This document shows positions 17,803 to 33,401 of a stretch of DNA of 64,000 bases, in pieces; positions within the stretch are counted from its first letter, which is position 1, and each line of letters starts with the position of its first letter. The notes beneath the pieces are model-generated. The model did no database searches. It was not told where the DNA came from and saw only the letters and a program-made list of their open reading frames with translations. The DNA is from an uncultured Thermotogaceae bacterium (GTDB lineage Bacteria; Thermotogota; Thermotogae; MWEM01), in NCBI GenBank assembly GCA_964580185.1, contig CAZOJQ010000002.1:52599-116598 (forward strand), given 5' to 3'. A program made the translations under genes and the position numbers.

Positions 17803-19242
17803 TTAAAAGGTTCCCACGATAAAGGCGTCTGTAATGTGATTGCCTTGAACAGTCTGAACACCGGGAAAAGCCCAGTCTAACACCTTGTCTCGGGCATAAT
17901 GGTACAACTCCGGATAGGTCAACTTCTGATCCGCATTTCCCATTGGTCCATATCCGTCTGCGTTGTGTGTCGCGTCGAAAGCGCCCATTGGATTGTTTGA
18001 ACCCGTATGGCCCATTCCGTCAGTCAGAAAGAAGCTCATGTACCCGTGTTTCAACACATCATCTTCGTAAGCGCTTTCCGTAACGGAGGCTCCCGTCAAC
18101 ACATAGAATTCGTAGGTGGAGCCAAACGCGCCTCTCTTCTCAGGATCCTCCGCAAAAGCCGCAATGACCGCCTCGTTGAATCGAACTGCCCGATCCAATC
18201 GATCTTGGCCGGATCCATCCGGGGTAAGATTCGCGAAATACCCCGATTCGCAAGCATCGATGATTACAAGCTTTGTTCCCTGGATCTTTCCCAATTCGGT
18301 TCGCAAGTCGTTCACGCTGATTTCCCCCGAAGGCAAATAGATATACGAAGTAATCCCATTGTGATACCCATGCCCAGAGTAGTGGAAGACAAAGAAGTCC
18401 TCCGCTTGACTGCCCGGGATATACTCATTCAACCAGCCAATCACATCGGAACGTGACATCGACCCTGTCCGCGTCTGTACGTCGAAAGATTCCGCCAGGT
18501 TGGAAAAAACCACTCGAATCCGTTCGGAATCACGCGCCGCTCCCGGGAGATCACCGGTCCCACCATAATCCGAAGCGCCAATAGACAACGCCCGGAAAGA
18601 TCCAAGGGGAATAAGGGCGAAGTGGGCCGTCAGAGTCACAGGATGAGCAGGCATCGGATACGAATAAGCGGCAACAGCGCTGATCAGTTCTCCGTTTTCG
18701 GCCCAATGGGAAAATTGATATCCTTCTTGGGGAACGGCATCAATAGGTACAACCGCGCCTGCGGGGTATGACCCAGCTCCAAAAACCGCGCCCCCTGCCA
18801 AAGGCTGCGCTTGCAGCTGAAGAAGGTACAGGATGGGAACGAATCGGGCCCGAATCGTGCGAGATGCAATCGCTGGGAAATTTAAGGGATTTGAAGCGCT
18901 GACTTTTGTCGTTCCTTCATACCACCCTTCGAACTGATAGCCTTCATAGGCCTGCGCTTCCAGGGAGATATAGGTACCCACAAACACTGTTTTGCTTTGA
19001 GATTGATCGGTCCACAATCCTCCATCGATCCGAACCTCTCCCCCATATAGAGCGTTTCGTGAATGGGCTTCTTCCAATGGCATGACACTGACGGTTATGG
19101 TAACCTGCAAGGGTGTTGGCCCAGGCGAAATTCCGCCGCACGCTGTCATCAAAAAAATGCTGGCAATCAAAATCCCCACCATGCAAAGAACGCAGATTCT
19201 TCTTTTCACCAGATCCCTCCTTATGCGTATGTGGATCTTCAT
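17803..19242 (-). CDS. Lipoprotein with two Listeria-Bacteroides (InlB B-repeat-like) domains and a C-terminal caspase-like peptidase C14 (clan CD) domain
   Basis: Signal peptide with lipobox-like LMTAC. GYQFEGWYEG and GYQFSHWAENG hallmark motifs of PF09479-type repeats. Caspase His/Cys dyad context FHYSGHG ... LVIIDACESG. Confidence 0.65.
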   Translation of the reverse strand: MKIHIRIRRDLVKRRICVLCMVGILIASIFLMTACGGISPGPTPLQVTITVSVMPLEEAHSRNALYGGEVRIDGGLWTDQSQSKTVFVGTYISLEAQAYEGYQFEGWYEGTTKVSASNPLNFPAIASRTIRARFVPILYLLQLQAQPLAGGAVFGAGSYPAGAVVPIDAVPQEGYQFSHWAENGELISAVAAYSYPMPAHPVTLTAHFALIPLGSFRALSIGASDYGGTGDLPGAARDSERIRVVFSNLAESFDVQTRTGSMSRSDVIGWLNEYIPGSQAEDFFVFHYSGHGYHNGITSYIYLPSGEISVNDLRTELGKIQGTKLVIIDACESGYFANLTPDGSGQDRLDRAVRFNEAVIAAFAEDPEKRGAFGSTYEFYVLTGASVTESAYEDDVLKHGYMSFFLTDGMGHTGSNNPMGAFDATHNADGYGPMGNADQKLTYPELYHYARDKVLDWAFPGVQTVQGNHITDAFIVGTF

Positions 19243-25113: not shown

Positions 25114-26445
25114 TCAATAGATTCTCATAACTGTACGGTCAATTCGGGATTCCTGTATGTGGGCAAAGGGAACGGAAATCCGAACATGAGAGATCTCCCG
25201 AAACCACACTCCAAAATGGACCGCTCTGCGACCCTCGAAAACAGCGGTCCAAAGATCTCGCTCGTCGATAGAGGGAGGCGAACGGGGGGAAGATGATTGC
25301 TCTCGTTGATGATCCCAGCGATCATTTTTGTTGGAAAAAAGAATCCGGTCGTCCAATACTCGAATCCACAGGTTTGGAGGACTCGACCGCAAACAGATGA
25401 CCTGATCTTTGGCGCTTTCATCAAAGGGCTCAGACCAACTGGCAAAGAAAGGACGCATTGCCTCTTGGGCAAGAGGATGATGGACACGAATGATCCATTG
25501 ATCGGGAAAGTCTTCATGAATCACCATCGTCGCTTTTTCCAGAATAGCCCGCAACATCCGATTCCATTCAGAATCATACGTAAACTCAGGGAAAAGCGCT
25601 GGATATCTGGCCAGATAATACGAGGGAGAAAACCAGTGGATTTGGGACTGCTCGGAAGAAATCCCATAATCCTCAATCCAGTCCAGGACCGACTGAGCGG
25701 TTAATGGCTGATGACTACCCGTTGGCTGACCCCGAAGGTCGACACTGAGAAACCCGGCCTGTCTACGGACTTCTAAAACCTGAAGAGGGGTCTGTCCATA
25801 CAAAAGGATTGAAGGGGAAAAGGATTCCCGATAAATCTGCTGCTCTCGGATCCTTTGCAACCCTTGTGCTGAGAAGGATATCCCCACATATTCGCCCACG
25901 CGATACGAGAACGGTTCCGCGGAAAACAACCCCCGGAAAAGGATTTCAACTCCCTCAAAGTACGGAAGGATGACTCCTCCCCGTTCCATGGCATTGTGAA
26001 GCAAGCTGAAAAAGGCTTCTGGATGAAAAAACGCTTCGATCTGACCCAGGGGATTCCAACCCTCCATCGGGCCATACCAACAAAGGATGACAGGCTGTTT
26101 CAACAGCCGATCGAACAAGGAAGCATGCAGGTTATTTTCGATGCTCCACCGGAAAACCCGCTGCTCGATCTGCTGGTCCATGCGGAAAACATTCCATAGG
26201 GTATGGATTGAAGGCGCATCCAGATTCTGAAAACTTTGATAGGAAGACAAATACAGCGTTAGGGACGTGTCTTGCACCCAAGGAATGGAACCGACAGTAG
26301 CAAAAGCGGAATATGACGTCACGAACAAAGGAGCCAGTACCAGCCAGGCTAAAACGCTTCGGATTGTCCGAAGATCAGAACATTTGACCAAACCCAAAGC
26401 TAAATCCTCCCCATTCGAGGGTGCGCATATTCCAACCGGTATCAA
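25114..26445 (-). CDS. Uncharacterised secreted protein (no recognisable domain); start uncertain, overlaps bamA 3' end
   Basis: 443-aa ORF in a different frame from bamA. The putative signal peptide SVLAWLVLAPLFVTSYSAFA would need a start inside the bamA 3' end, and the ORF's first codon is TTG. I could recognise no family. Confidence 0.45.
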   Translation of the reverse strand: MIPVGICAPSNGEDLALGLVKCSDLRTIRSVLAWLVLAPLFVTSYSAFATVGSIPWVQDTSLTLYLSSYQSFQNLDAPSIHTLWNVFRMDQQIEQRVFRWSIENNLHASLFDRLLKQPVILCWYGPMEGWNPLGQIEAFFHPEAFFSLLHNAMERGGVILPYFEGVEILFRGLFSAEPFSYRVGEYVGISFSAQGLQRIREQQIYRESFSPSILLYGQTPLQVLEVRRQAGFLSVDLRGQPTGSHQPLTAQSVLDWIEDYGISSEQSQIHWFSPSYYLARYPALFPEFTYDSEWNRMLRAILEKATMVIHEDFPDQWIIRVHHPLAQEAMRPFFASWSEPFDESAKDQVICLRSSPPNLWIRVLDDRILFSNKNDRWDHQREQSSSPRSPPSIDERDLWTAVFEGRRAVHFGVWFREISHVRISVPFAHIQESRIDRTVMRIY

Positions 26446-28744
26446 ATCTCAAAAGCCCGAACCCCGGGATGGTAATCCTCATTCCAAACCCAAACGAACC
26501 CAGCATTCGCCCAAAGTCGAACTCACTTCCATCATTAAAGGCCATTCCCGCATCGATAAAGCCGACCAGGCCCAATCCAACAGGGTCTTGACGAATGATT
26601 TGATACCGATACTCCATATTCGCCGCAACGGCGTACTGTCCCAATTGCGATCTTGTATCCAATATCCCTCGAACCAATGCGCTCTGGGGCCCACCGATTT
26701 TATACTCTAAAACTTCTAGAGGATTATAGAGAATTTCTCCCGCAAAGATTCGTCCTGCAAAGGTATGATCTCTCCAAGGGGTCCAAAAGCCTCGAACAAA
26801 CTGGCGCATCTGGAACCAATCTTCTGTCGCCCCCAAGCCGGAATACTCCGCTCGAATATAGAACTCATATCCCGAGGTAGGACTGGTTAAGTCATCTCGG
26901 GTATCAAAGCTGTAGTTGAGTCCCAACACTGTAACGATCCCCGAAGGAGCAATTGTGGTTGCGGTGGCGGGAACATCATGGCGGTTGAAGCTCCCCCAGG
27001 TCAAATCAGCGCCTAGGAAGTGGAAGTCCCCGATCCGAAGGCCCACATTGGGAACAATCCGGAATGTATCGACTTCAAATCGGACAGGGATCCGTTCATC
27101 CTCATCGCGGAAATACCTTAGGTCCCACTTTCGGCTGTAATTCAAGCTGATGCCCGCGTCAAAATTGGAACCAAATAGGTTTTTGATGGCGTAGGAAAAA
27201 CCGAATTCGGGTTGACGGCCTAAAACTGCGCTCAGCGAAATGGTTTCCCCTTGACCGGTGGGGTTGATCCATTCAAAACTCATGTTTCCGGAAATCTGCT
27301 GAATGACAGATCCTTCAATAGAAGGATCGAAAGTAAGGCCGGCATTCATAGTCAGTGGATACGGAGATTCCTCCAAAGTGATCACAAAAATCGTGCCTGG
27401 GGAATTCCGGGCAAATCCGATCGGTTCCATGCGAATGTCAGAAAAGTACTGGGTTCGATTGAGGTTGATGTACGTCTGAACCCAATCCCGTTCGGTAACT
27501 GCTTGTCCAGGCCGTAATCGGACCTCCCTCATCACCAAGTCCTCTCTTGTTTTGGTTAGGCCTCGAATCCGGATTTCTTGCACCACCGATTCGGTGATGG
27601 TGAAGGTAAGGGTCTGTGTTGATGCACTATACACTGGATGGATGATTACGATGGGGTAGCCGGCGTCTTTGTATCGATAAACCATCAACTCGGTATCGCG
27701 CAGGACATCCATCAAAACGGTCGTAGGGTTGCGTACGCTTCGCAAACCGGGCATCAGCTCTGCATGAGACAGAAGGGTATTCCCTTTGATGATCACCTCT
27801 TGAACTGGATGGTCTTTGGGAACAACTGGGTTCAATTGAATCTTGAGCACAAGATATACTCCATACTCCCCTGTTTCCATCGGTTCATCCAGCGCGTTGA
27901 AATACATTTCTGTCTCAGGACCATATAGACCCGTATTGTAGAGTGAGTTCAAAGCAAGCTGAAGGGTAAGCAACTTTGGATAGCAAACCGCTTTGTTCCG
28001 AAAGATTCTCCAGAAATCCGCATAGAAGTCCTTCAAGGTTTCCAATTGCATGATATCCTTGACTTCCTGTAAAGTGATGTCTCCCGTCTCTCCGGTAACC
28101 TGGATGTCGTACAGACCATATTCGATAACCTTGATTTCCAGCTTCCCTTCCGGGATAAAAAAACGTCCATTCGGAGCGATCTCCATGTTGGTTCGTATTT
28201 CGATCAATTGAGGGATGTATCCTTGGCTGGAGTAATAGGTCCGGATGGCATTCGTGCTTCGAATCAGCATTTTATGATTGAACGCTCGATCTTTTTTGAT
28301 CTGGATTAATGGGTTCAAATCGGCTACTCGGACAACATTGGAGCCATTGATACTCAATGTGATATCATTGACAGTCGGGTGTTCCACCAGTTCAAAAACA
28401 ATCATCTTAACGTCGCCAATGTAGGGAGCCAAGCGGTAAGACACCGATTGAAAGTATCCCATATCTTCAATTAGGAAGATATCCTGTTCGATTTGGTCAA
28501 TCGTAACCCGAGCCCCTTCTTTGGTATTACGGATCACTTCTTGGATCTCATAGGTCGGAATGGTTGTATTCCCGGTAATCTCCACAAGCCCAATCGAATT
28601 GGACCATCCAAAACTCGCAAGTAGAATAAGTAGTATGATTCCTGTCCCTATTCGGATTTTCTTCAATGATAACAAAGCCCTGTCCCCCTTGATCATCCAA
28701 GTATGCGTAACCGATCTAAATTGCCGATGTTCCTTACGATCCAA
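26375..28744 (-). CDS. bamA: Outer-membrane protein assembly factor BamA/Omp85 family (POTRA repeats + 16-strand barrel)
   Basis: 789 aa. Signal-anchor, repeated POTRA-like modules, a C-terminal barrel with alternating hydrophobic dyads, and the terminal signature ...GFSFGFGQMF ending in Phe. Confidence 0.8.
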   Translation of the reverse strand: MDRKEHRQFRSVTHTWMIKGDRALLSLKKIRIGTGIILLILLASFGWSNSIGLVEITGNTTIPTYEIQEVIRNTKEGARVTIDQIEQDIFLIEDMGYFQSVSYRLAPYIGDVKMIVFELVEHPTVNDITLSINGSNVVRVADLNPLIQIKKDRAFNHKMLIRSTNAIRTYYSSQGYIPQLIEIRTNMEIAPNGRFFIPEGKLEIKVIEYGLYDIQVTGETGDITLQEVKDIMQLETLKDFYADFWRIFRNKAVCYPKLLTLQLALNSLYNTGLYGPETEMYFNALDEPMETGEYGVYLVLKIQLNPVVPKDHPVQEVIIKGNTLLSHAELMPGLRSVRNPTTVLMDVLRDTELMVYRYKDAGYPIVIIHPVYSASTQTLTFTITESVVQEIRIRGLTKTREDLVMREVRLRPGQAVTERDWVQTYINLNRTQYFSDIRMEPIGFARNSPGTIFVITLEESPYPLTMNAGLTFDPSIEGSVIQQISGNMSFEWINPTGQGETISLSAVLGRQPEFGFSYAIKNLFGSNFDAGISLNYSRKWDLRYFRDEDERIPVRFEVDTFRIVPNVGLRIGDFHFLGADLTWGSFNRHDVPATATTIAPSGIVTVLGLNYSFDTRDDLTSPTSGYEFYIRAEYSGLGATEDWFQMRQFVRGFWTPWRDHTFAGRIFAGEILYNPLEVLEYKIGGPQSALVRGILDTRSQLGQYAVAANMEYRYQIIRQDPVGLGLVGFIDAGMAFNDGSEFDFGRMLGSFGFGMRITIPGFGLLRFDTGWNMRTLEWGGFSFGFGQMF

Positions 28745-29183
28745 CCTTTTTCAGGATTTTGGGTCGAAACTTCCCCCGCGTGGCACGATCGATCCATCGA
28801 AGCGCAAAAAAACCGCTGGAAAGAGGGAGCAAAGACCACAAGAGTGATTGAACATCCGAAAGTCGAAAGATTTCACTGGTAAGGAAAAGCGAGAGGATAA
28901 AGAGGATGGTAGGAATCCCGTAGGTCAGAAATGCCAGTCGAGTCACGGGCGTTTGGGGGATTTCCACTTCCAACTCATCCATCGCTTGAACACTCATTCC
29001 ATTAGGGCATTCTATATGGAGTTCCAGTTTTTTTGGCACGCCACAAATCGACGAAGAGGGGCACGATCCACATGCTGCCGTTCGTTCCTTTTCAACGATC
29101 GCTACCGTTTTCCCTTTTTCCTGTTCTACGCGCACAACACGAAATACTTCGATCACTTGATTGCTCCAATCGATACATTCCAA
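28734..29183 (-). CDS. RseC/MucC-family protein (sigma-E regulator C / SoxR-reducing system component-like)
   Basis: 149 aa. Cys-rich N-domain (CGSCPSSSICG) followed by two TM helices, matching RseC/MucC architecture. Confidence 0.55.
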   Translation of the reverse strand: MECIDWSNQVIEVFRVVRVEQEKGKTVAIVEKERTAACGSCPSSSICGVPKKLELHIECPNGMSVQAMDELEVEIPQTPVTRLAFLTYGIPTILFILSLFLTSEIFRLSDVQSLLWSLLPLSSGFFALRWIDRATRGKFRPKILKKVGS

Positions 29184-29192
29184 CCCTCTGCT

Positions 29193-30350
29193 CTAGAAGC
29201 GGATCGAAATCCCCAAATAGGGGATCCATCGATCCCGGTGATGAACACCGGCATACATCTCAAATCCCGTTTGGACTTCAAATCCCAGTTGGAATCGCCA
29301 ATCTTCTTGTCTGATCCGAATCAAAACCCTCCATGGTAGATGGATCGATGAAAACTCCCAAGACAACTGCCCGGAATCGATCGAGTACAACAAGGTAAGG
29401 GTCTGATTCCAGGTATTGGATTTTACTTGAATCCCGGAGATCCATTCATCGTCATATCCACAAACCAGCTGAATTCTCGGATGGATGAACCATTCCTGAT
29501 AAAAAAATGGGTAGGTCTGTTGAGTTACGTTGATTCCAATCGCAGTCGCCCCGAACCAAAAGGTAGGAAAAACGGAAATGAACCGAAATTCATCGGGTTC
29601 TCCCGATCGGACATCCCCTTGGACAGAAACCCAAATGAAATCGAGTAAACCAACCCGAATCCCATTGGCATATTGACGACTAAATTCCTTGATTTGATGC
29701 ACATAGTCACGGGCTGGTGCTTCAGACAAAGGATCTTTTCCCGATTGCAGGAGGTTCGTGACTGCGCCTGTTCCCATATAATATGCAGCCAGTGCAAGGT
29801 CTTTGGAACCCAGTTGGCGCTCCAGACGATCGAAATATTGAAGGATGCGCACACCCCCATAGGGATTGAACGGATTGATCATCCCGATCTCTTCAGCTGT
29901 AAACGGTTTGGTTTGAAATAGCCCGAGCGCGAACGACGGTGAAATCGAATGAACGATAAACGAAGATTCCTTCTGAATCAAACCTCCAAGGATCGGATCA
30001 TCGATCCGAACGGATAATCCAGTCTGAAAAGTCCTTCTAAAGGTAATTTGCACCGAAAACTCGGTCATCCCTCCTTGGAAAGAAACATACGGGCGAGGTT
30101 GGTACAAAAGATTGGTGGGGAAAAAACCCATTACCCCTCTGGCCAAAAGGAAACCGATTGCAAACCAACCGATCGTTCTCCAGACACTAATGGAGATGTT
30201 CCTGTTCCTGGAGCGTTCGCGCAATAATCTCCTCCTGATGGGATCGGTCCAAATGGATGAAATAATCGCTATATCCTGCGACCCGGACCAGGAGATCGGC
30301 GTATTGTTCGGGATCTTTTTGCGCGGAGCGCAAAGTCTCTGTATCCACAA
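29193..30350 (-). CDS. Lytic transglycosylase (SLT domain) fused to a C-terminal putative outer-membrane beta-barrel; start uncertain
   Basis: SLT catalytic motifs ESSFIVHSISPSFALGLFQ and AAYYMGTGAV. C-terminal ~170 aa is beta-rich and ends in GISIRF (aromatic C-terminus). The N-terminal candidate signal-anchor IGWFAIGFLLA lies upstream of the internal ATG. Alternative starts fall at 30131 or 30146. Confidence 0.55.
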   Translation of the reverse strand: MWIQRLCAPRKKIPNNTPISWSGSQDIAIISSIWTDPIRRRLLRERSRNRNISISVWRTIGWFAIGFLLARGVMGFFPTNLLYQPRPYVSFQGGMTEFSVQITFRRTFQTGLSVRIDDPILGGLIQKESSFIVHSISPSFALGLFQTKPFTAEEIGMINPFNPYGGVRILQYFDRLERQLGSKDLALAAYYMGTGAVTNLLQSGKDPLSEAPARDYVHQIKEFSRQYANGIRVGLLDFIWVSVQGDVRSGEPDEFRFISVFPTFWFGATAIGINVTQQTYPFFYQEWFIHPRIQLVCGYDDEWISGIQVKSNTWNQTLTLLYSIDSGQLSWEFSSIHLPWRVLIRIRQEDWRFQLGFEVQTGFEMYAGVHHRDRWIPYLGISIRF

Positions 30351-32625
30351 CATTGAACTGGATATGGTGCCCTCCCTGACGAAAATAACTCCGGACCAGG
30401 TGCGCAATTTTTTGGATTCCCTCCCGTTCTTTGAATAAAGTCGGAGAAAACCGTTGATTGAGGAGCGTTCCTCCGGTTTTCGCCTGATCCATCCGGGAAA
30501 GCGAACGAATCACTGCCGTTGGTCCATTTCGATCCGCTCCATGAGACGGAGAAGTCCCATCTGAAATGGGAAGTCCCTTATGGCGCCCATTGGGTGTTGC
30601 TCCTGTTTTTGATCCGAAATAGACATGACAGGTCGTCGAAAGAAAGTTGATATGGTATCTCCCCCCAACGCTATCGGGTTTTCCATCAATCATTTCTAAC
30701 AAAGAGCCAAAAACCCGTTCCATCAGCTGATCCGCTTGAGGATCATCATTTCCAAAAAACGGGGTGTGATTCCATAGGAGTTGCCTCAGGCGTTCTTCCT
30801 CATGGAAATCCTGATTCATCGCATGGATGATTTGACCCATTGTACGGTCCTTTCGTTCATATACATGGGTCTGGAGCGCAGAGAGGCTGTCTGTGATCGT
30901 ACCGATTCCGCAGCATTGGATATAGTGGGAATTGTACCGCGCGCCTCCTTGATAGTAATCTTTTCCTTTTTGAATGCAGTCTGCAATCAGCACCGACAAA
31001 AAGGGCGCGGGCATCTCGTTGGCATATGCCTGTTCCAGCAGATGATTGGCTTCCATCTTGATCTGGATCGCGTAGTTCAGTTGCTTCTCAAATGCGCGAT
31101 ACAAAGCCTCAAAGGAATCCATCCGATTGGGATCTCCGCACGAAAGGCCTACTTGCTTTCCGCTGAATGGATCAACCCCTTGATTCAAAGTTAGTTCCAA
31201 GATTTTTGGAAGGTTAAGGTACCCAGTCAATATATAGGCCTCTTTCCCAAAAGCGCCCGTTTCGATACACCCGCTGGTCCCTCCTTCTCTGGCATCCTCT
31301 AGCGTTTTTCCCATGCCGACCATCTCTTGAACCACAAGATCGGCATTAAACACGGAAGGATATCCAAAGCCGCGGGAAATTACCGCGCAAGCCCTTTCGA
31401 GAAAGTGTTGGGGGGATTTTTGGCTGATTTGAATGTTGAATCCGGGTTGCAAAAGGTGGATCTCTTCCGCTATGTCCAACAATAGGTAGGAAAGGTCATT
31501 GACCCCATCGCTGCCATTGCGCAGCAGCCCACCCAAATTGATGTTTGTAAAATCATTGTAGGTTCCGCTTTCTTGGGCCGTAACACCCACCTTTGGGGGT
31601 GCTGGTTGATTGTTGAATTTGATCCACAGACAACTGATCAGTTCTCGCGCTTCTTCTTGGGTAAGTCGGCCTTCATCCAGATCGCTCCGATAAAACGGAT
31701 ACAGATGTTGATCCAAATGCCCCGGATTCATGGCATCCCATCCGTTTAGCTCCATGATGGTTCCCAAATGCAAAAACCAATAGGTCTGCAACGCTTCGTG
31801 CAAATTTTGAGGGGCATTTTCTGGGACTCGAGCGCAAACCCGCGCAACCGTTCGAAGCTCTTCTCTCCTTTTGGGATCCTTTTCCTGGTTGGCCATATGA
31901 TCGGCCAATTCCGAATGCCTCCGAGCAAATAGAACGATGGCATCGCACGCGATTTCCATAGCCATCAGCTGGTTCTGTTTTTCGTACGCATGGGGATCGC
32001 TGAGGCAATCTAACGCCTTCCGTTGATCCTGGATCTCTTGTTTCCAATCTTTGATCCCTTTTTGATAAATCCGACCATCAAGGGTCGTATGGCCAGGAGC
32101 GCGCTGTTCCATGAATTCGGTAAAAACCCCAGCCTCATACAACAAATGCCATGGTTCGGAAAATAGTGGAAGAAGGCGATCCCGCATCGATCTGCCTTCC
32201 CAATACGGAATCACTTTCGTTTCATAGGCTTCAAATACTTGTGGCGGCACCTGATAAGCGGTCATTTCTCGATCATTGAGCACCTGTAGGTCTTTCAGAC
32301 TATGGCATGTGAGTTCGGGAAAGGTGGGTACGGATTTCGGAAAAGGCCCCCTCTCTCCCACGATCCATTCATCGGCTCCGATATAAATCTGTTGCTTCGC
32401 GCACAGTTCGCGAAAACTTAGGGCCCGCAGGATTGGTATCGGCACTTTCCCCAATTGGTTTTTGTAGAAATCTGTTATTATGACGGCTCGTTCATGGGAA
32501 ATTGTTGGCTTTGCATGGTAGCTTTCTTCTCGCAACCGTTGAACCCTGGGTGTCATTGATCCTCTCCTCCGTTTCGCAGGGCAGTAAACCCTCTTTTGCG
32601 CAAATCCATCAACCACTGTTTGCAT
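30187..32625 (-). CDS. Glycyl radical enzyme, PFL2/glycerol-dehydratase family (substrate unknown)
   Basis: 812 aa. Glycine-radical motif RVAGYSDYF near the C-terminus. Catalytic Cys loop GCIETG (GCxE type of DhaB/CutC/HypD-like dehydratases and lyases). Confidence 0.85.
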   Translation of the reverse strand: MQTVVDGFAQKRVYCPAKRRRGSMTPRVQRLREESYHAKPTISHERAVIITDFYKNQLGKVPIPILRALSFRELCAKQQIYIGADEWIVGERGPFPKSVPTFPELTCHSLKDLQVLNDREMTAYQVPPQVFEAYETKVIPYWEGRSMRDRLLPLFSEPWHLLYEAGVFTEFMEQRAPGHTTLDGRIYQKGIKDWKQEIQDQRKALDCLSDPHAYEKQNQLMAMEIACDAIVLFARRHSELADHMANQEKDPKRREELRTVARVCARVPENAPQNLHEALQTYWFLHLGTIMELNGWDAMNPGHLDQHLYPFYRSDLDEGRLTQEEARELISCLWIKFNNQPAPPKVGVTAQESGTYNDFTNINLGGLLRNGSDGVNDLSYLLLDIAEEIHLLQPGFNIQISQKSPQHFLERACAVISRGFGYPSVFNADLVVQEMVGMGKTLEDAREGGTSGCIETGAFGKEAYILTGYLNLPKILELTLNQGVDPFSGKQVGLSCGDPNRMDSFEALYRAFEKQLNYAIQIKMEANHLLEQAYANEMPAPFLSVLIADCIQKGKDYYQGGARYNSHYIQCCGIGTITDSLSALQTHVYERKDRTMGQIIHAMNQDFHEEERLRQLLWNHTPFFGNDDPQADQLMERVFGSLLEMIDGKPDSVGGRYHINFLSTTCHVYFGSKTGATPNGRHKGLPISDGTSPSHGADRNGPTAVIRSLSRMDQAKTGGTLLNQRFSPTLFKEREGIQKIAHLVRSYFRQGGHHIQFNVVDTETLRSAQKDPEQYADLLVRVAGYSDYFIHLDRSHQEEIIARTLQEQEHLH

Positions 32626-33401
32626 GCTCGATCTGAAGCAGATGGGTCATACGAGTCTTGGGAAATACCGATTTTTCGGGCTTTTCCCGTGCCCCAGGCA
32701 TGATAGGGCATCAACTGAACCGATTTCATTCGATTCAAGCGTTCCAAAATTTGGATGGTGCCCATTCGATTCTCCTCTCCGTCGTTCATTCCAAAGATAA
32801 TGGGAATTCGGATGGCATAAGGGATTGTGGTCCTTTGGTCCAGGTAACTAAGGTTTTGGAGAATCTTCTCGTTGCTGGTTCCTGTGCAATCAAGATGGAG
32901 CTCTTTCGATGCCGCTTTGATATCAAACAAAACCCAGTCTGTATGGGAAAGGACGGATTGAAACAGGTCCAAATCTGCATAACCACTTGTATCCAACGTA
33001 CGGTGGATTCCTTTCTTACCCAAAGACTCCCACAGCTCGATCGTGAACATAGGCTGTGTCAATGGTTCCCCGCCCGAAAGGGTAACCCCTCCACCGGATT
33101 CTTCATAGAAGATCCGGTCTCTCATCACCAACGAAACTACCTCATCAGTCCTCATAGGACGGCCGACTAACTCTCGAGCGTTTGTTGGGCAAGTATACTG
33201 ACCTTTCGCATATATCCTGCATTGGCCGCAATCCATACACCGTTCTTTTGTAAAAAGGATTTGCGGTTCTGGGGACTGGCTCTCTGGGTTGTGACACCAC
33301 CGGCACCGAAGCGGGCACCCTTTTAAAAAAACGGTCGTTCGGATGCCACTGCCATCATCGGTCGCAAAACGCTTGATCAGAAAAACGGTAGCGCTCTCCA
33401 T
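32553..33401 (-). CDS. Glycyl-radical enzyme activating protein (radical SAM, with auxiliary ferredoxin-like cluster)
   Basis: CPLRCRWCHNPE (CxxxCxxC) at the N-terminus. Second Cys cluster CMDCGQCRIYAKGQYTCP. GGEP motif LSGGEPL. Overlaps the GRE gene start by ~70 nt. Confidence 0.85.
   Translation of the reverse strand: MESATVFLIKRFATDDGSGIRTTVFLKGCPLRCRWCHNPESQSPEPQILFTKERCMDCGQCRIYAKGQYTCPTNARELVGRPMRTDEVVSLVMRDRIFYEESGGGVTLSGGEPLTQPMFTIELWESLGKKGIHRTLDTSGYADLDLFQSVLSHTDWVLFDIKAASKELHLDCTGTSNEKILQNLSYLDQRTTIPYAIRIPIIFGMNDGEENRMGTIQILERLNRMKSVQLMPYHAWGTGKARKIGISQDSYDPSASDRACKQWLMDLRKRGFTALRNGGEDQ

What the first reader, a model, noticed from the sequence alone, without database searches (positions are those of the whole stretch)
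29193..30407. Lytic transglycosylase fused to a C-terminal outer-membrane-like beta-barrel
The N-terminal half carries clear SLT catalytic motifs (ES..., GLFQ, AYYMGTG). The C-terminal ~170 aa is beta-rich with alternating hydrophobic residues and ends in ...YLGISIRF, the aromatic C-terminal signature of BamA substrates. Known lytic transglycosylases are lipoproteins or soluble, so a barrel-anchored one would be a distinct architecture. The gene lies in a cluster with bamA and an RseC-like gene. The 5' end is unresolved because the candidate signal-anchor lies where the gene would overlap the GRE gene.
Basis: partly seen in the sequence, partly recalled or inferred. Interest (0 to 1): 0.5.

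Follow-up and report, generated by a model that had tools for sequence, protein, structure and literature searches.

The report
Cell-wall cutter built into outer-membrane barrel
This gene from an uncultured Thermotogota bacterium encodes a cell-wall-cutting enzyme (lytic transglycosylase) predicted to sit inside a loop of a 14-stranded outer-membrane barrel, always next to the barrel-assembly gene bamA; no enzyme of this class that I know of, or could find in a limited literature search, is anchored this way.

Summary

One refinement: the barrel is split. Two strands before the SLT domain and 12 after it appear to form a 14-strand barrel. The enzyme would then be an insertion between strands 2 and 3, which by normal barrel topology is a periplasmic turn.

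All 14 strands show two-residue hydrophobic periodicity. 26 of 28 homologues end in F or Y, and the more distant homologues have signal peptides.

The family is rare (5 clusters among 1.84 billion representatives) and was found only in Thermotogota MAGs. The order SLT-barrel, RseC, BamA, unknown, SecA holds in 27 of the 28 loci that extend past the gene; in a minority RseC was not detected.

Likely function: a peptidoglycan lytic transglycosylase anchored to the toga by a BamA-inserted barrel, in a phylum that lacks outer-membrane lipoprotein sorting.

The start codon remains unresolved (TTG 30224 or ATT 30191). The public gene calls cut off the signal peptide. This is a new variant of a known kind.

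The parts
30126..30224 (-). Probable Sec signal peptide (MRERSRNRNISISVWRTIGWFAIGFLLARGVMG, if translation starts at TTG 30224). An alternative start is ATT 30191, which overlaps the GRE stop codon. The public gene call starts at ATG 30131 and cuts this segment off.
   Evidence: AGGAGG lies 6 nt upstream of TTG 30224. The hydrophobic segment aligns with ATG-initiated signal peptides of the distant homologues, directly before the conserved LFPNxxLYQ motif. ATG 30131 is GTT in the 80%-identical relative, and TTG 30224 is TTT there. dN/dS is 0.33 after the GRE stop.
30000..30125 (-). Conserved N-terminal motif FPTNLLYQ plus the beta-hairpin (strand 1 residues 46-52, strand 2 residues 55-74) that forms the first two strands of the barrel.
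29661..29999 (-). SLT (family 1 lytic transglycosylase) catalytic domain, residues 76-188, inserted between barrel strands 2 and 3.
29967..29969 (-). Codon of the putative catalytic glutamate (E86 in IQKESSF).
   Evidence: Invariant in alignments A1, A3 and A4. It aligns with the Glu of the ES motif in MltC (QIESSF), Cj0843c (RQESRF) and Slt (RQESRF).
29196..29660 (-). Twelve C-terminal transmembrane beta-strands (residues 189-343), strands 3-14 of the barrel. The stop codon is at 29193-29195.
29196..29225 (-). Last strand with a beta-signal-like C-terminus, IPYLGISIRF (hydrophobic at -1, -3 and -5, terminal Phe).
   Evidence: The terminal residue is F in 24, Y in 2 and L in 2 of 28 distinct homologues.
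28734..29183 (-). RseC/MucC-family gene directly downstream, detected at this position in most related loci.
   Evidence: Pfam PF04246, E 1.6e-21. Synteny by tblastn.
26375..28744 (-). BamA (POTRA repeats plus Omp85 barrel), the presumed insertase for this protein. It follows the SLT-barrel gene in all but one related locus that reaches that far.
   Evidence: Pfam POTRA and Omp85; NCBIfam BamA TIGR03303 at 123.7 bits, which is below its curated cut-off of 297. Synteny.

Best explanation
The gene encodes a secreted two-module envelope protein of an uncultured Thermotogota lineage. A predicted 14-stranded outer-membrane (toga) beta-barrel carries a family-1 lytic transglycosylase (SLT) domain inserted between strands 2 and 3. 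Shown by computation: the SLT domain with conserved catalytic residues, the barrel-like fold of the rest in a predicted model, conservation of the architecture, and the link to bamA. Inferred: after Sec export, the barrel is folded into the outer membrane by the BamA encoded two genes downstream. Because both barrel termini normally face the periplasm, the strand 2-3 connection is a periplasmic turn, so the enzyme hangs under the outer membrane. The unusually long strands 2 and 3 (20 and 18 residues) may act as a stalk. From there it cleaves MurNAc-GlcNAc bonds of the peptidoglycan within reach of the outer membrane. The barrel would do the job that a lipid anchor does for the outer-membrane lipoprotein lytic transglycosylases (MltA-F) of Proteobacteria, in a phylum that lacks the Lol sorting route.
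For: SLT domain: Pfam 39.4 bits, found in 17 of 17 aligned members. The catalytic Glu and the GxxQ and AYxxG motifs are invariant and align with MltC, Cj0843c and Slt.

Context: the order SLT-barrel, (RseC), BamA, unknown, SecA holds in 27 of the 28 related loci that extend past the gene. One short contig (L022) shows nothing downstream. The SLT-barrel proteins in these loci are only 28-34% identical to this one.

Selection: all three parts are under purifying selection, dN/dS 0.11-0.22.

[quoted passage not shown] The toga is built from beta-barrel proteins (PMC10160955).

Against: In this window and its 80%-identical relative, no conserved canonical start codon lies upstream of the hydrophobic segment. 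TTG 30224 is TTT in the relative. The only start-capable position shared by both (30146) would leave no signal peptide.

All connections between strands are very short, so loop lengths give no independent evidence for orientation.

There is no experimental evidence for activity or localisation. One sub-clade ends in ...VLIL rather than an aromatic residue.
Confidence: 0.75

Rival explanations
1. The beta-rich region is a soluble periplasmic beta-sandwich or other accessory domain, such as a carbohydrate-binding or 3D-like domain, and the protein is an ordinary soluble or signal-anchored lytic transglycosylase.
For: Amphipathic strands also occur in sandwiches. No Pfam outer-membrane family matches the region. 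The fold rests on a prediction from a shallow alignment.
Confidence: 0.05
2. The protein is barrel-anchored, but its SLT domain mainly binds peptidoglycan rather than cutting it. It would tether the toga to the cell wall, analogous to OmpA, Pal or the SLH domain of OmpM/Omp-alpha.
For: Thermotogae lack the SlpA/OmpM fusion and are thought to use a variable bipartite tether (PMC10160955). A barrel with a periplasmic wall-binding module is the classic tether design.
Against: The catalytic Glu and all family-1 motif residues are invariant across sequences of about 30% identity. That is the pattern of a retained enzyme activity. Degenerate binding-only domains usually lose these residues.
Confidence: 0.1
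3. The protein is a dedicated partner of the BAM/Sec envelope-assembly machinery, or a muropeptide channel. Either the enzyme locally opens or senses the wall where BamA inserts toga proteins, or the 14-strand barrel conducts the anhydro-muropeptides that the enzyme releases.
For: The gene order with rseC, bamA, an unknown secreted protein and secA is conserved across deep divergence, while the upstream genes vary. The closest structural matches are channel-forming 14-strand barrels (Omp33, FadL, OmpG) and BamG, a barrel subunit of the Flavobacterium BAM complex.
Against: Gene order alone does not show physical or functional coupling, and no promoter or terminator pattern distinguishes an operon. 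I could not assess whether the barrel lumen is open. This is a refinement of the main explanation rather than an exclusive alternative.
Confidence: 0.12
4. The two-module ORF is an artefact: an assembly chimera, or a recent accidental gene fusion of no functional significance.
For: The window comes from a metagenome-assembled genome.
Against: The same architecture occurs in 28 distinct sequences from many independent samples and assemblies. There are no in-frame stops, and dN/dS is 0.11-0.22 in every part.
Confidence: 0.01

Closest known systems
Family 1 lytic transglycosylases with the SLT fold (E. coli Slt70, MltC, MltD, MltE/EmtA, MltF; C. jejuni Cj0843c)
   Different: The known members are soluble (Slt70, Cj0843c) or lipid-anchored outer-membrane lipoproteins, with helical, LysM or transporter-like accessory domains. 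This protein has no lipobox cysteine in its leader. It is embedded in a predicted transmembrane barrel instead. The domain also carries family-specific invariant motifs (HS[IV]S, KPF, NPF).
MipA (MltA-interacting protein; MipA/OmpV outer-membrane barrel) with MltA
   Same: An outer-membrane beta-barrel is physically associated with a lytic transglycosylase at the inner face of the outer membrane. MipA is a 12-strand barrel resembling NanC and OmpG, and it was reported to bind MltA and PBP1B (PMC10936184).
   Different: In MipA-MltA, barrel and enzyme are separate proteins and the enzyme is from a different family (MltA, family 2). Here they form one polypeptide with the enzyme inserted into the barrel. 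There is no sequence match to the MipA Pfam family.
Omp33 of Acinetobacter baumannii and other 14-strand barrels (FadL/TodX family, OmpG, BamG)
   Different: Sequence identity is only 8-13% and there is no family-level sequence match. None of these carries an enzyme domain in a periplasmic turn.
Outer-membrane barrels fused to peptidoglycan-binding modules (OmpA C-terminal domain, intimin/invasin LysM, SlpA/OmpM SLH)
   Same: One polypeptide links a BamA-inserted barrel to a periplasmic module that engages the cell wall.
   Different: Those modules bind but do not cleave peptidoglycan, and they are attached at a terminus of the barrel. Here the module is a hydrolase-like enzyme with intact catalytic residues, placed inside the barrel sequence. 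(The comparison rests on general knowledge plus PMC10160955.)

Membership tests
Family 1 lytic transglycosylases (Pfam SLT, PF01464) | Significant match to the SLT profile above the curated threshold | tested here: met
   39.4 bits against a cut-off of 21.3. 17 of 17 aligned family members match, best E 6.4e-11.
Family 1 lytic transglycosylases (Pfam SLT, PF01464) | Catalytic glutamate in the E-S motif, aligned with that of solved enzymes | tested here: met
   E86 (IQKESSF) aligns with the ES motif of MltC (QIESSF), Cj0843c (RQESRF) and Slt (RQESRF). It is invariant in alignments A1, A3 and A4.
Family 1 lytic transglycosylases (Pfam SLT, PF01464) | Motifs G-L-x-Q and A-Y-x-x-G that shape the substrate groove | tested here: met
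   G101, Q104, L145, Y148 and G151 are invariant. They align with GLMQ and GYNAGPG of 5o2n.
Family 1 lytic transglycosylases (Pfam SLT, PF01464) | Lysozyme-like helical fold | tested here: met
Family 1 lytic transglycosylases (Pfam SLT, PF01464) | Non-hydrolytic cleavage of MurNAc-GlcNAc that yields 1,6-anhydroMurNAc | not testable with these tools
   Needs an enzyme assay on sacculi.
Integral outer-membrane beta-barrel proteins (BAM substrates) | Closed antiparallel barrel with an even number of membrane-spanning strands | tested here: met
Integral outer-membrane beta-barrel proteins (BAM substrates) | Alternating lipid-facing hydrophobic and lumen-facing polar residues in every strand | tested here: met
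   All 14 strands show this at family level. The mean difference is 3.0 KD units, against 0.84 in the helices used as control.
Integral outer-membrane beta-barrel proteins (BAM substrates) | N-terminal Sec signal peptide | tested here: inconclusive
   By eye, the more distant homologues have clear ATG-initiated signal peptides; no signal-peptide predictor was available. In the window a matching hydrophobic segment exists, but it needs TTG 30224 or ATT 30191 as start. Neither is confirmed, and TTG is not conserved in the close relative.
Integral outer-membrane beta-barrel proteins (BAM substrates) | C-terminal beta-signal ending in an aromatic residue | tested here: met
   The window ends in ...YLGISIRF. 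Among 28 distinct members, 24 end in F, 2 in Y and 2 in L.
Integral outer-membrane beta-barrel proteins (BAM substrates) | Physical location in the outer membrane and dependence on BamA | not testable with these tools
   Only circumstantial: a BamA gene lies two genes downstream in 27 of the 28 related loci that extend past the gene.
Outer-membrane lipoprotein lytic transglycosylases (MltA-F type) | Lipobox with an invariant Cys at the signal-peptide cleavage site | tested here: not met
   There is no cysteine in the first 45 residues of the window protein. Some homologues have a Cys near the end of the leader, but it is not conserved across the family.
MipA/OmpV scaffold barrels (PF06629) | Sequence match to the family profile | tested here: not met
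   No Pfam match to the barrel part even at E up to 10.
OmpA-like, SLH or LysM tether proteins | A recognised non-catalytic peptidoglycan-binding domain | tested here: not met
   SLT is the only Pfam domain found in the protein.

The most novel reading that the evidence does not exclude
A peptidoglycan-cleaving enzyme is spliced into a periplasmic turn of a BamA-dependent barrel and works together with the co-encoded BamA, RseC, unknown protein and SecA module. This would couple local wall remodelling to insertion of toga proteins. It would be a Thermotogota-specific, lipoprotein-independent solution to coordinating the cell wall and the outer membrane, and a new class of outer-membrane enzyme in which the catalytic domain is periplasmic and inserted within the barrel.
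Probability: 0.25. Interest if true: 0.7.

Novelty: new variant of a known kind. Interest (0 to 1): 0.55.

Why it matters
As far as I know, and as far as a limited literature search shows, all described lytic transglycosylases are soluble, lipid-anchored or helix-anchored. An enzyme of this class inserted into an outer-membrane barrel would be a new way to position wall-cutting activity at the inner face of an outer membrane.

It also suggests how diderm bacteria without the Lol lipoprotein-sorting pathway, such as Thermotogota, place periplasmic enzymes on the outer membrane: as BamA substrates.

The conserved neighbourhood with bamA and secA provides a testable lead on how wall remodelling and toga or outer-membrane assembly are coordinated in a deep-branching phylum whose envelope is used as a model for outer-membrane evolution (PMC10160955).

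Practically, public annotation calls these proteins only 'lytic transglycosylase domain-containing protein'. In this clade it also starts the gene too late and removes the signal peptide.

Tried and rejected
- A single-sequence AlphaFold2 run was useless (pLDDT 33.5).
- A word-indexed search with the C-terminal alignment alone returned nothing, not even the query's own protein. The same tool with the full-length alignment added only two new family clusters.
- The afdb50 structure library was unavailable. I therefore could not look for similar predicted architectures in cultured Thermotogae or in other phyla.
- Pfam on the barrel part at E up to 10 gave only noise: DUF3859 and DUF3841, one member each.
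- The weak NCBIfam hit to the Borrelia flagellar transglycosylase BB0259 (14.5 bits against a cut-off of 234) covers only the SLT catalytic motif. I rejected it as a family assignment.
- The promoter and terminator scan of the cluster found fewer sites than the shuffled controls. A weak hairpin at 30174-30152, inside the putative signal-peptide region, has only 3 G-C pairs, and I did not take it as a terminator.
- Literature searches for a lytic transglycosylase joined to an outer-membrane barrel found no description of such a protein.
- ATG 30353 as start was rejected. It has no Shine-Dalgarno sequence, and its conservation is explained by the overlapping GRE codons.
Full report
**1. What is in the sequence**

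It is the maximal ORF. Its first ~73 codons overlap the 3' end of a glycyl-radical enzyme gene (PFL-like plus Gly_radical, 30187-32625).

Pfam finds one domain, SLT (PF01464), at 39.4 bits against a gathering score of 21.3. Sequence comparison with solved structures aligns IQKESSF, GLFQ and AYYMGTG with the ES, GLMQ and AYNAG motifs of Slt, MltC and Cj0843c.

Downstream on the same strand, with gaps of a few bases or small overlaps, lie:
- an RseC/MucC-family gene (28734-29183);
- a BamA (POTRA plus Omp85, 26375-28744);
- a 443-aa ORF with no family match (25114-26445);
- SecA and a class-I release factor (PCRF and RF-1 domains).

**2. Origin and family**

Word-indexed protein searches found only the protein itself (P0001, called as 312 aa) and an 81%-identical relative (P0002).

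An exhaustive phmmer search of the last 157 residues against 1.84 billion cluster representatives found only five clusters at E <= 0.001. All are 303-343 aa long, and the matching region is always at the C-terminus. All contain SLT.

A pattern scan of one genome per GTDB species found 15 loci. Every one is from a MAG labelled Thermotogota, Thermotogae or Thermotogaceae. A metagenome scan added 20 more loci. NCBI names for members are only 'lytic transglycosylase domain-containing protein [Thermotogota bacterium]'.

In total I collected 28 distinct sequences, most only 27-34% identical to the window protein. The architecture is therefore old and conserved, but the family is rare and lineage-restricted. 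The beta part has no Pfam family.

**3. The fold of the beta part**

A single-sequence AlphaFold2 run failed. With an 8-sequence alignment (A4), the model reached mean pLDDT 80.5 and pTM 0.73. Confidence is 79-92 per 10-residue block through the C-terminal strands and the helical core of the SLT domain, and lower (69-78) in one stretch of the SLT domain (residues 91-120).

The secondary structure is:
- a low-confidence N-terminal helix (the leader);
- two strands (residues 46-52 and 55-74);
- the helical SLT domain (about 76-188);
- twelve strands (189-342).

- then a P. gingivalis BAM subunit, COG4313, KdgM, TodX and CymA.

**4. The barrel is split**

Independent sequence evidence supports this:
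- At family level all 14 strands, including the two N-terminal ones, show strict two-residue hydrophobic periodicity. The mean difference between alternate positions is 3.0 Kyte-Doolittle units, against 0.84 for the SLT helices.
- The hairpin is the most constrained part of the gene in the comparison with the 80% relative: dN/dS 0.11, against 0.18 for SLT and 0.22 for the C-terminal strands.

Strands 2 and 3 are unusually long (20 and 18 residues). All other connections between strands are 1-5 residues.

Inference from general barrel topology: the N- and C-termini face the periplasm and the strand number is even, so the strand 2-3 connection is the first periplasmic turn. The enzyme then faces the cell wall, with the long hairpin as a possible stalk. 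I could not inspect coordinates, so this remains an inference.

**5. Export and insertion signals**

The last residue is F in 24, Y in 2 and L in 2 of the 28 distinct sequences. The window ends in YLGISIRF, with hydrophobic residues at -1, -3 and -5.

By eye, the more distant homologues carry ordinary ATG-initiated signal peptides directly before a conserved LFPNxxLYQ motif. No signal-peptide predictor was available.

In the window, the equivalent hydrophobic segment (IGWFAIGFLLARGVMG) lies between the GRE stop codon and the publicly called ATG (30131). That gene call removes the segment.

Candidate starts:
- TTG 30224 has an AGGAGG 6 nt upstream and overlaps the GRE gene by 38 nt. In the 80% relative this codon is TTT.
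- ATG 30131 is GTT in the relative, and the relative's called ATG corresponds to TTG 30146 in the window. The two public calls thus begin at non-homologous codons, and both lack a leader.
- ATT 30191, which overlaps the GRE stop codon, is present in both. It would give a typical 22-residue leader (MSVWRTIGWFAIGFLLARGVMG and MSAWRRICWFAIVLLMAKGVVG), but ATT is a rare start codon.

After the GRE stop, the reading frame shows 5 synonymous against 7 non-synonymous changes (dN/dS 0.33). This is weakly consistent with coding.

The 5' end therefore stays unresolved. A leader is nonetheless a family feature and is required by the fold.

**6. Context**

In tblastn comparisons, 27 of the 28 related loci that extend beyond the gene show BamA or RseC directly downstream. 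One short contig (L022, 1.5 kb) shows nothing there. Where the contig is long enough, the order is SLT-barrel, RseC-like, BamA, the unknown ORF, SecA. RseC was not detected in seven loci and the unknown ORF in two. This holds even though the SLT-barrel proteins share only 28-34% identity and BamA about 40%.

The upstream GRE and its activase are present only in the close relatives. The stable association is thus with the envelope-biogenesis genes.

A promoter and terminator scan gave nothing above chance.

**7. Most likely mechanism**

Shown by computation: a conserved, apparently catalytically competent SLT domain; a barrel-like fold of the remainder in a predicted model; an outer-membrane-type C-terminus; a link to bamA.

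Inferred: Sec export, BamA-dependent insertion into the toga, and a periplasmic enzyme that cuts glycan strands only where the wall is within reach of the outer membrane.

The rationale comes from the phylum. [quoted passage not shown] Their toga is built of beta-barrel proteins (PMC10160955). A barrel anchor would give what the lipid anchor gives to MltA-F in Proteobacteria.

Rivals:
- a soluble sandwich (5%, contradicted);
- a non-catalytic wall tether (10%, contradicted by the invariant catalytic residues);
- a BAM-coupled or channel function (12%, a refinement that synteny and the channel-like structural matches allow but do not show);
- an artefact (1%).

**8. Comparison with the known**

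The catalytic module is a member of the family 1 lytic transglycosylases, and all testable defining features are met. The beta module meets the testable criteria of an integral outer-membrane barrel, with the leader unconfirmed in this particular gene. It belongs to no described sequence family.

The protein is not an Mlt-type lipoprotein, because it has no lipobox. It is not a MipA/OmpV member. Functionally the closest analogy is the MipA-MltA pair, a barrel and a lytic transglycosylase as separate proteins (PMC10936184). Barrel-plus-wall-binding fusions such as OmpA or OmpM are a second analogy.

Text searches found no description of a lytic transglycosylase fused to or inserted in an outer-membrane barrel. 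That is absence in a limited library, not proof of absence.

**9. Verdict**

This is a real, conserved and unusual architecture: a new variant of a known kind. Interest is moderate to high for envelope biologists (0.55).

The main caveats are that the structure is a prediction from a shallow alignment, that the start codon is unresolved in this clade, and that nothing has been tested experimentally.

Noticed in passing
window 25114-26445 (-): A 443-aa ORF between bamA and secA has a signal-peptide-like N-terminus and an aromatic C-terminus (...MRIY), but no Pfam or NCBIfam match. A weakly similar gene (18-28% identity) sits at the same place after BamA in most related Thermotogota loci. It could be an unrecognised BAM accessory or envelope factor.
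   Followed up: partly
window 28734-29183 (-): An RseC/MucC-family gene with a Cys-rich N-terminus and hydrophobic C-terminal segments sits between the SLT-barrel gene and bamA. It was detected in most related loci, though not all. A fixed RseC-BamA pairing is not something I know from model organisms.
   Followed up: partly
window 30131-30224; L001 9535-9613: Public gene calls for this protein and for its 80% relative start at non-homologous codons (ATG 30131 here, and the equivalent of 30146 in the relative). Both remove the signal-peptide-like segment. An ATT that overlaps the upstream GRE stop codon is present in both and would give a normal 22-residue leader.
   Followed up: partly
window 30187-33401 (-): A glycyl-radical enzyme (PFL-like, 812 aa as ORF) and its radical-SAM activase lie directly upstream and overlap the SLT-barrel ORF. 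This pairing occurs only in the close relatives, not in the wider family.
   Followed up: partly
L011 1844-2887, L028, L032: One sub-clade of the family ends in ...VLIL instead of an aromatic residue, unlike the other 26 distinct sequences.
   Followed up: no
window 17803-19242 (-): A 479-aa protein combines Listeria-Bacteroides/InlB B-repeat domains with a caspase-like Peptidase_C14 domain.
   Followed up: no
tool behaviour: The word-indexed protein search with the C-terminal-domain alignment (A2) returned no hits at all, not even the query's own database entry. The exhaustive phmmer search with the same region found 5 clusters. Negative results from that tool with poorly conserved alignments should not be trusted.
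   Followed up: no
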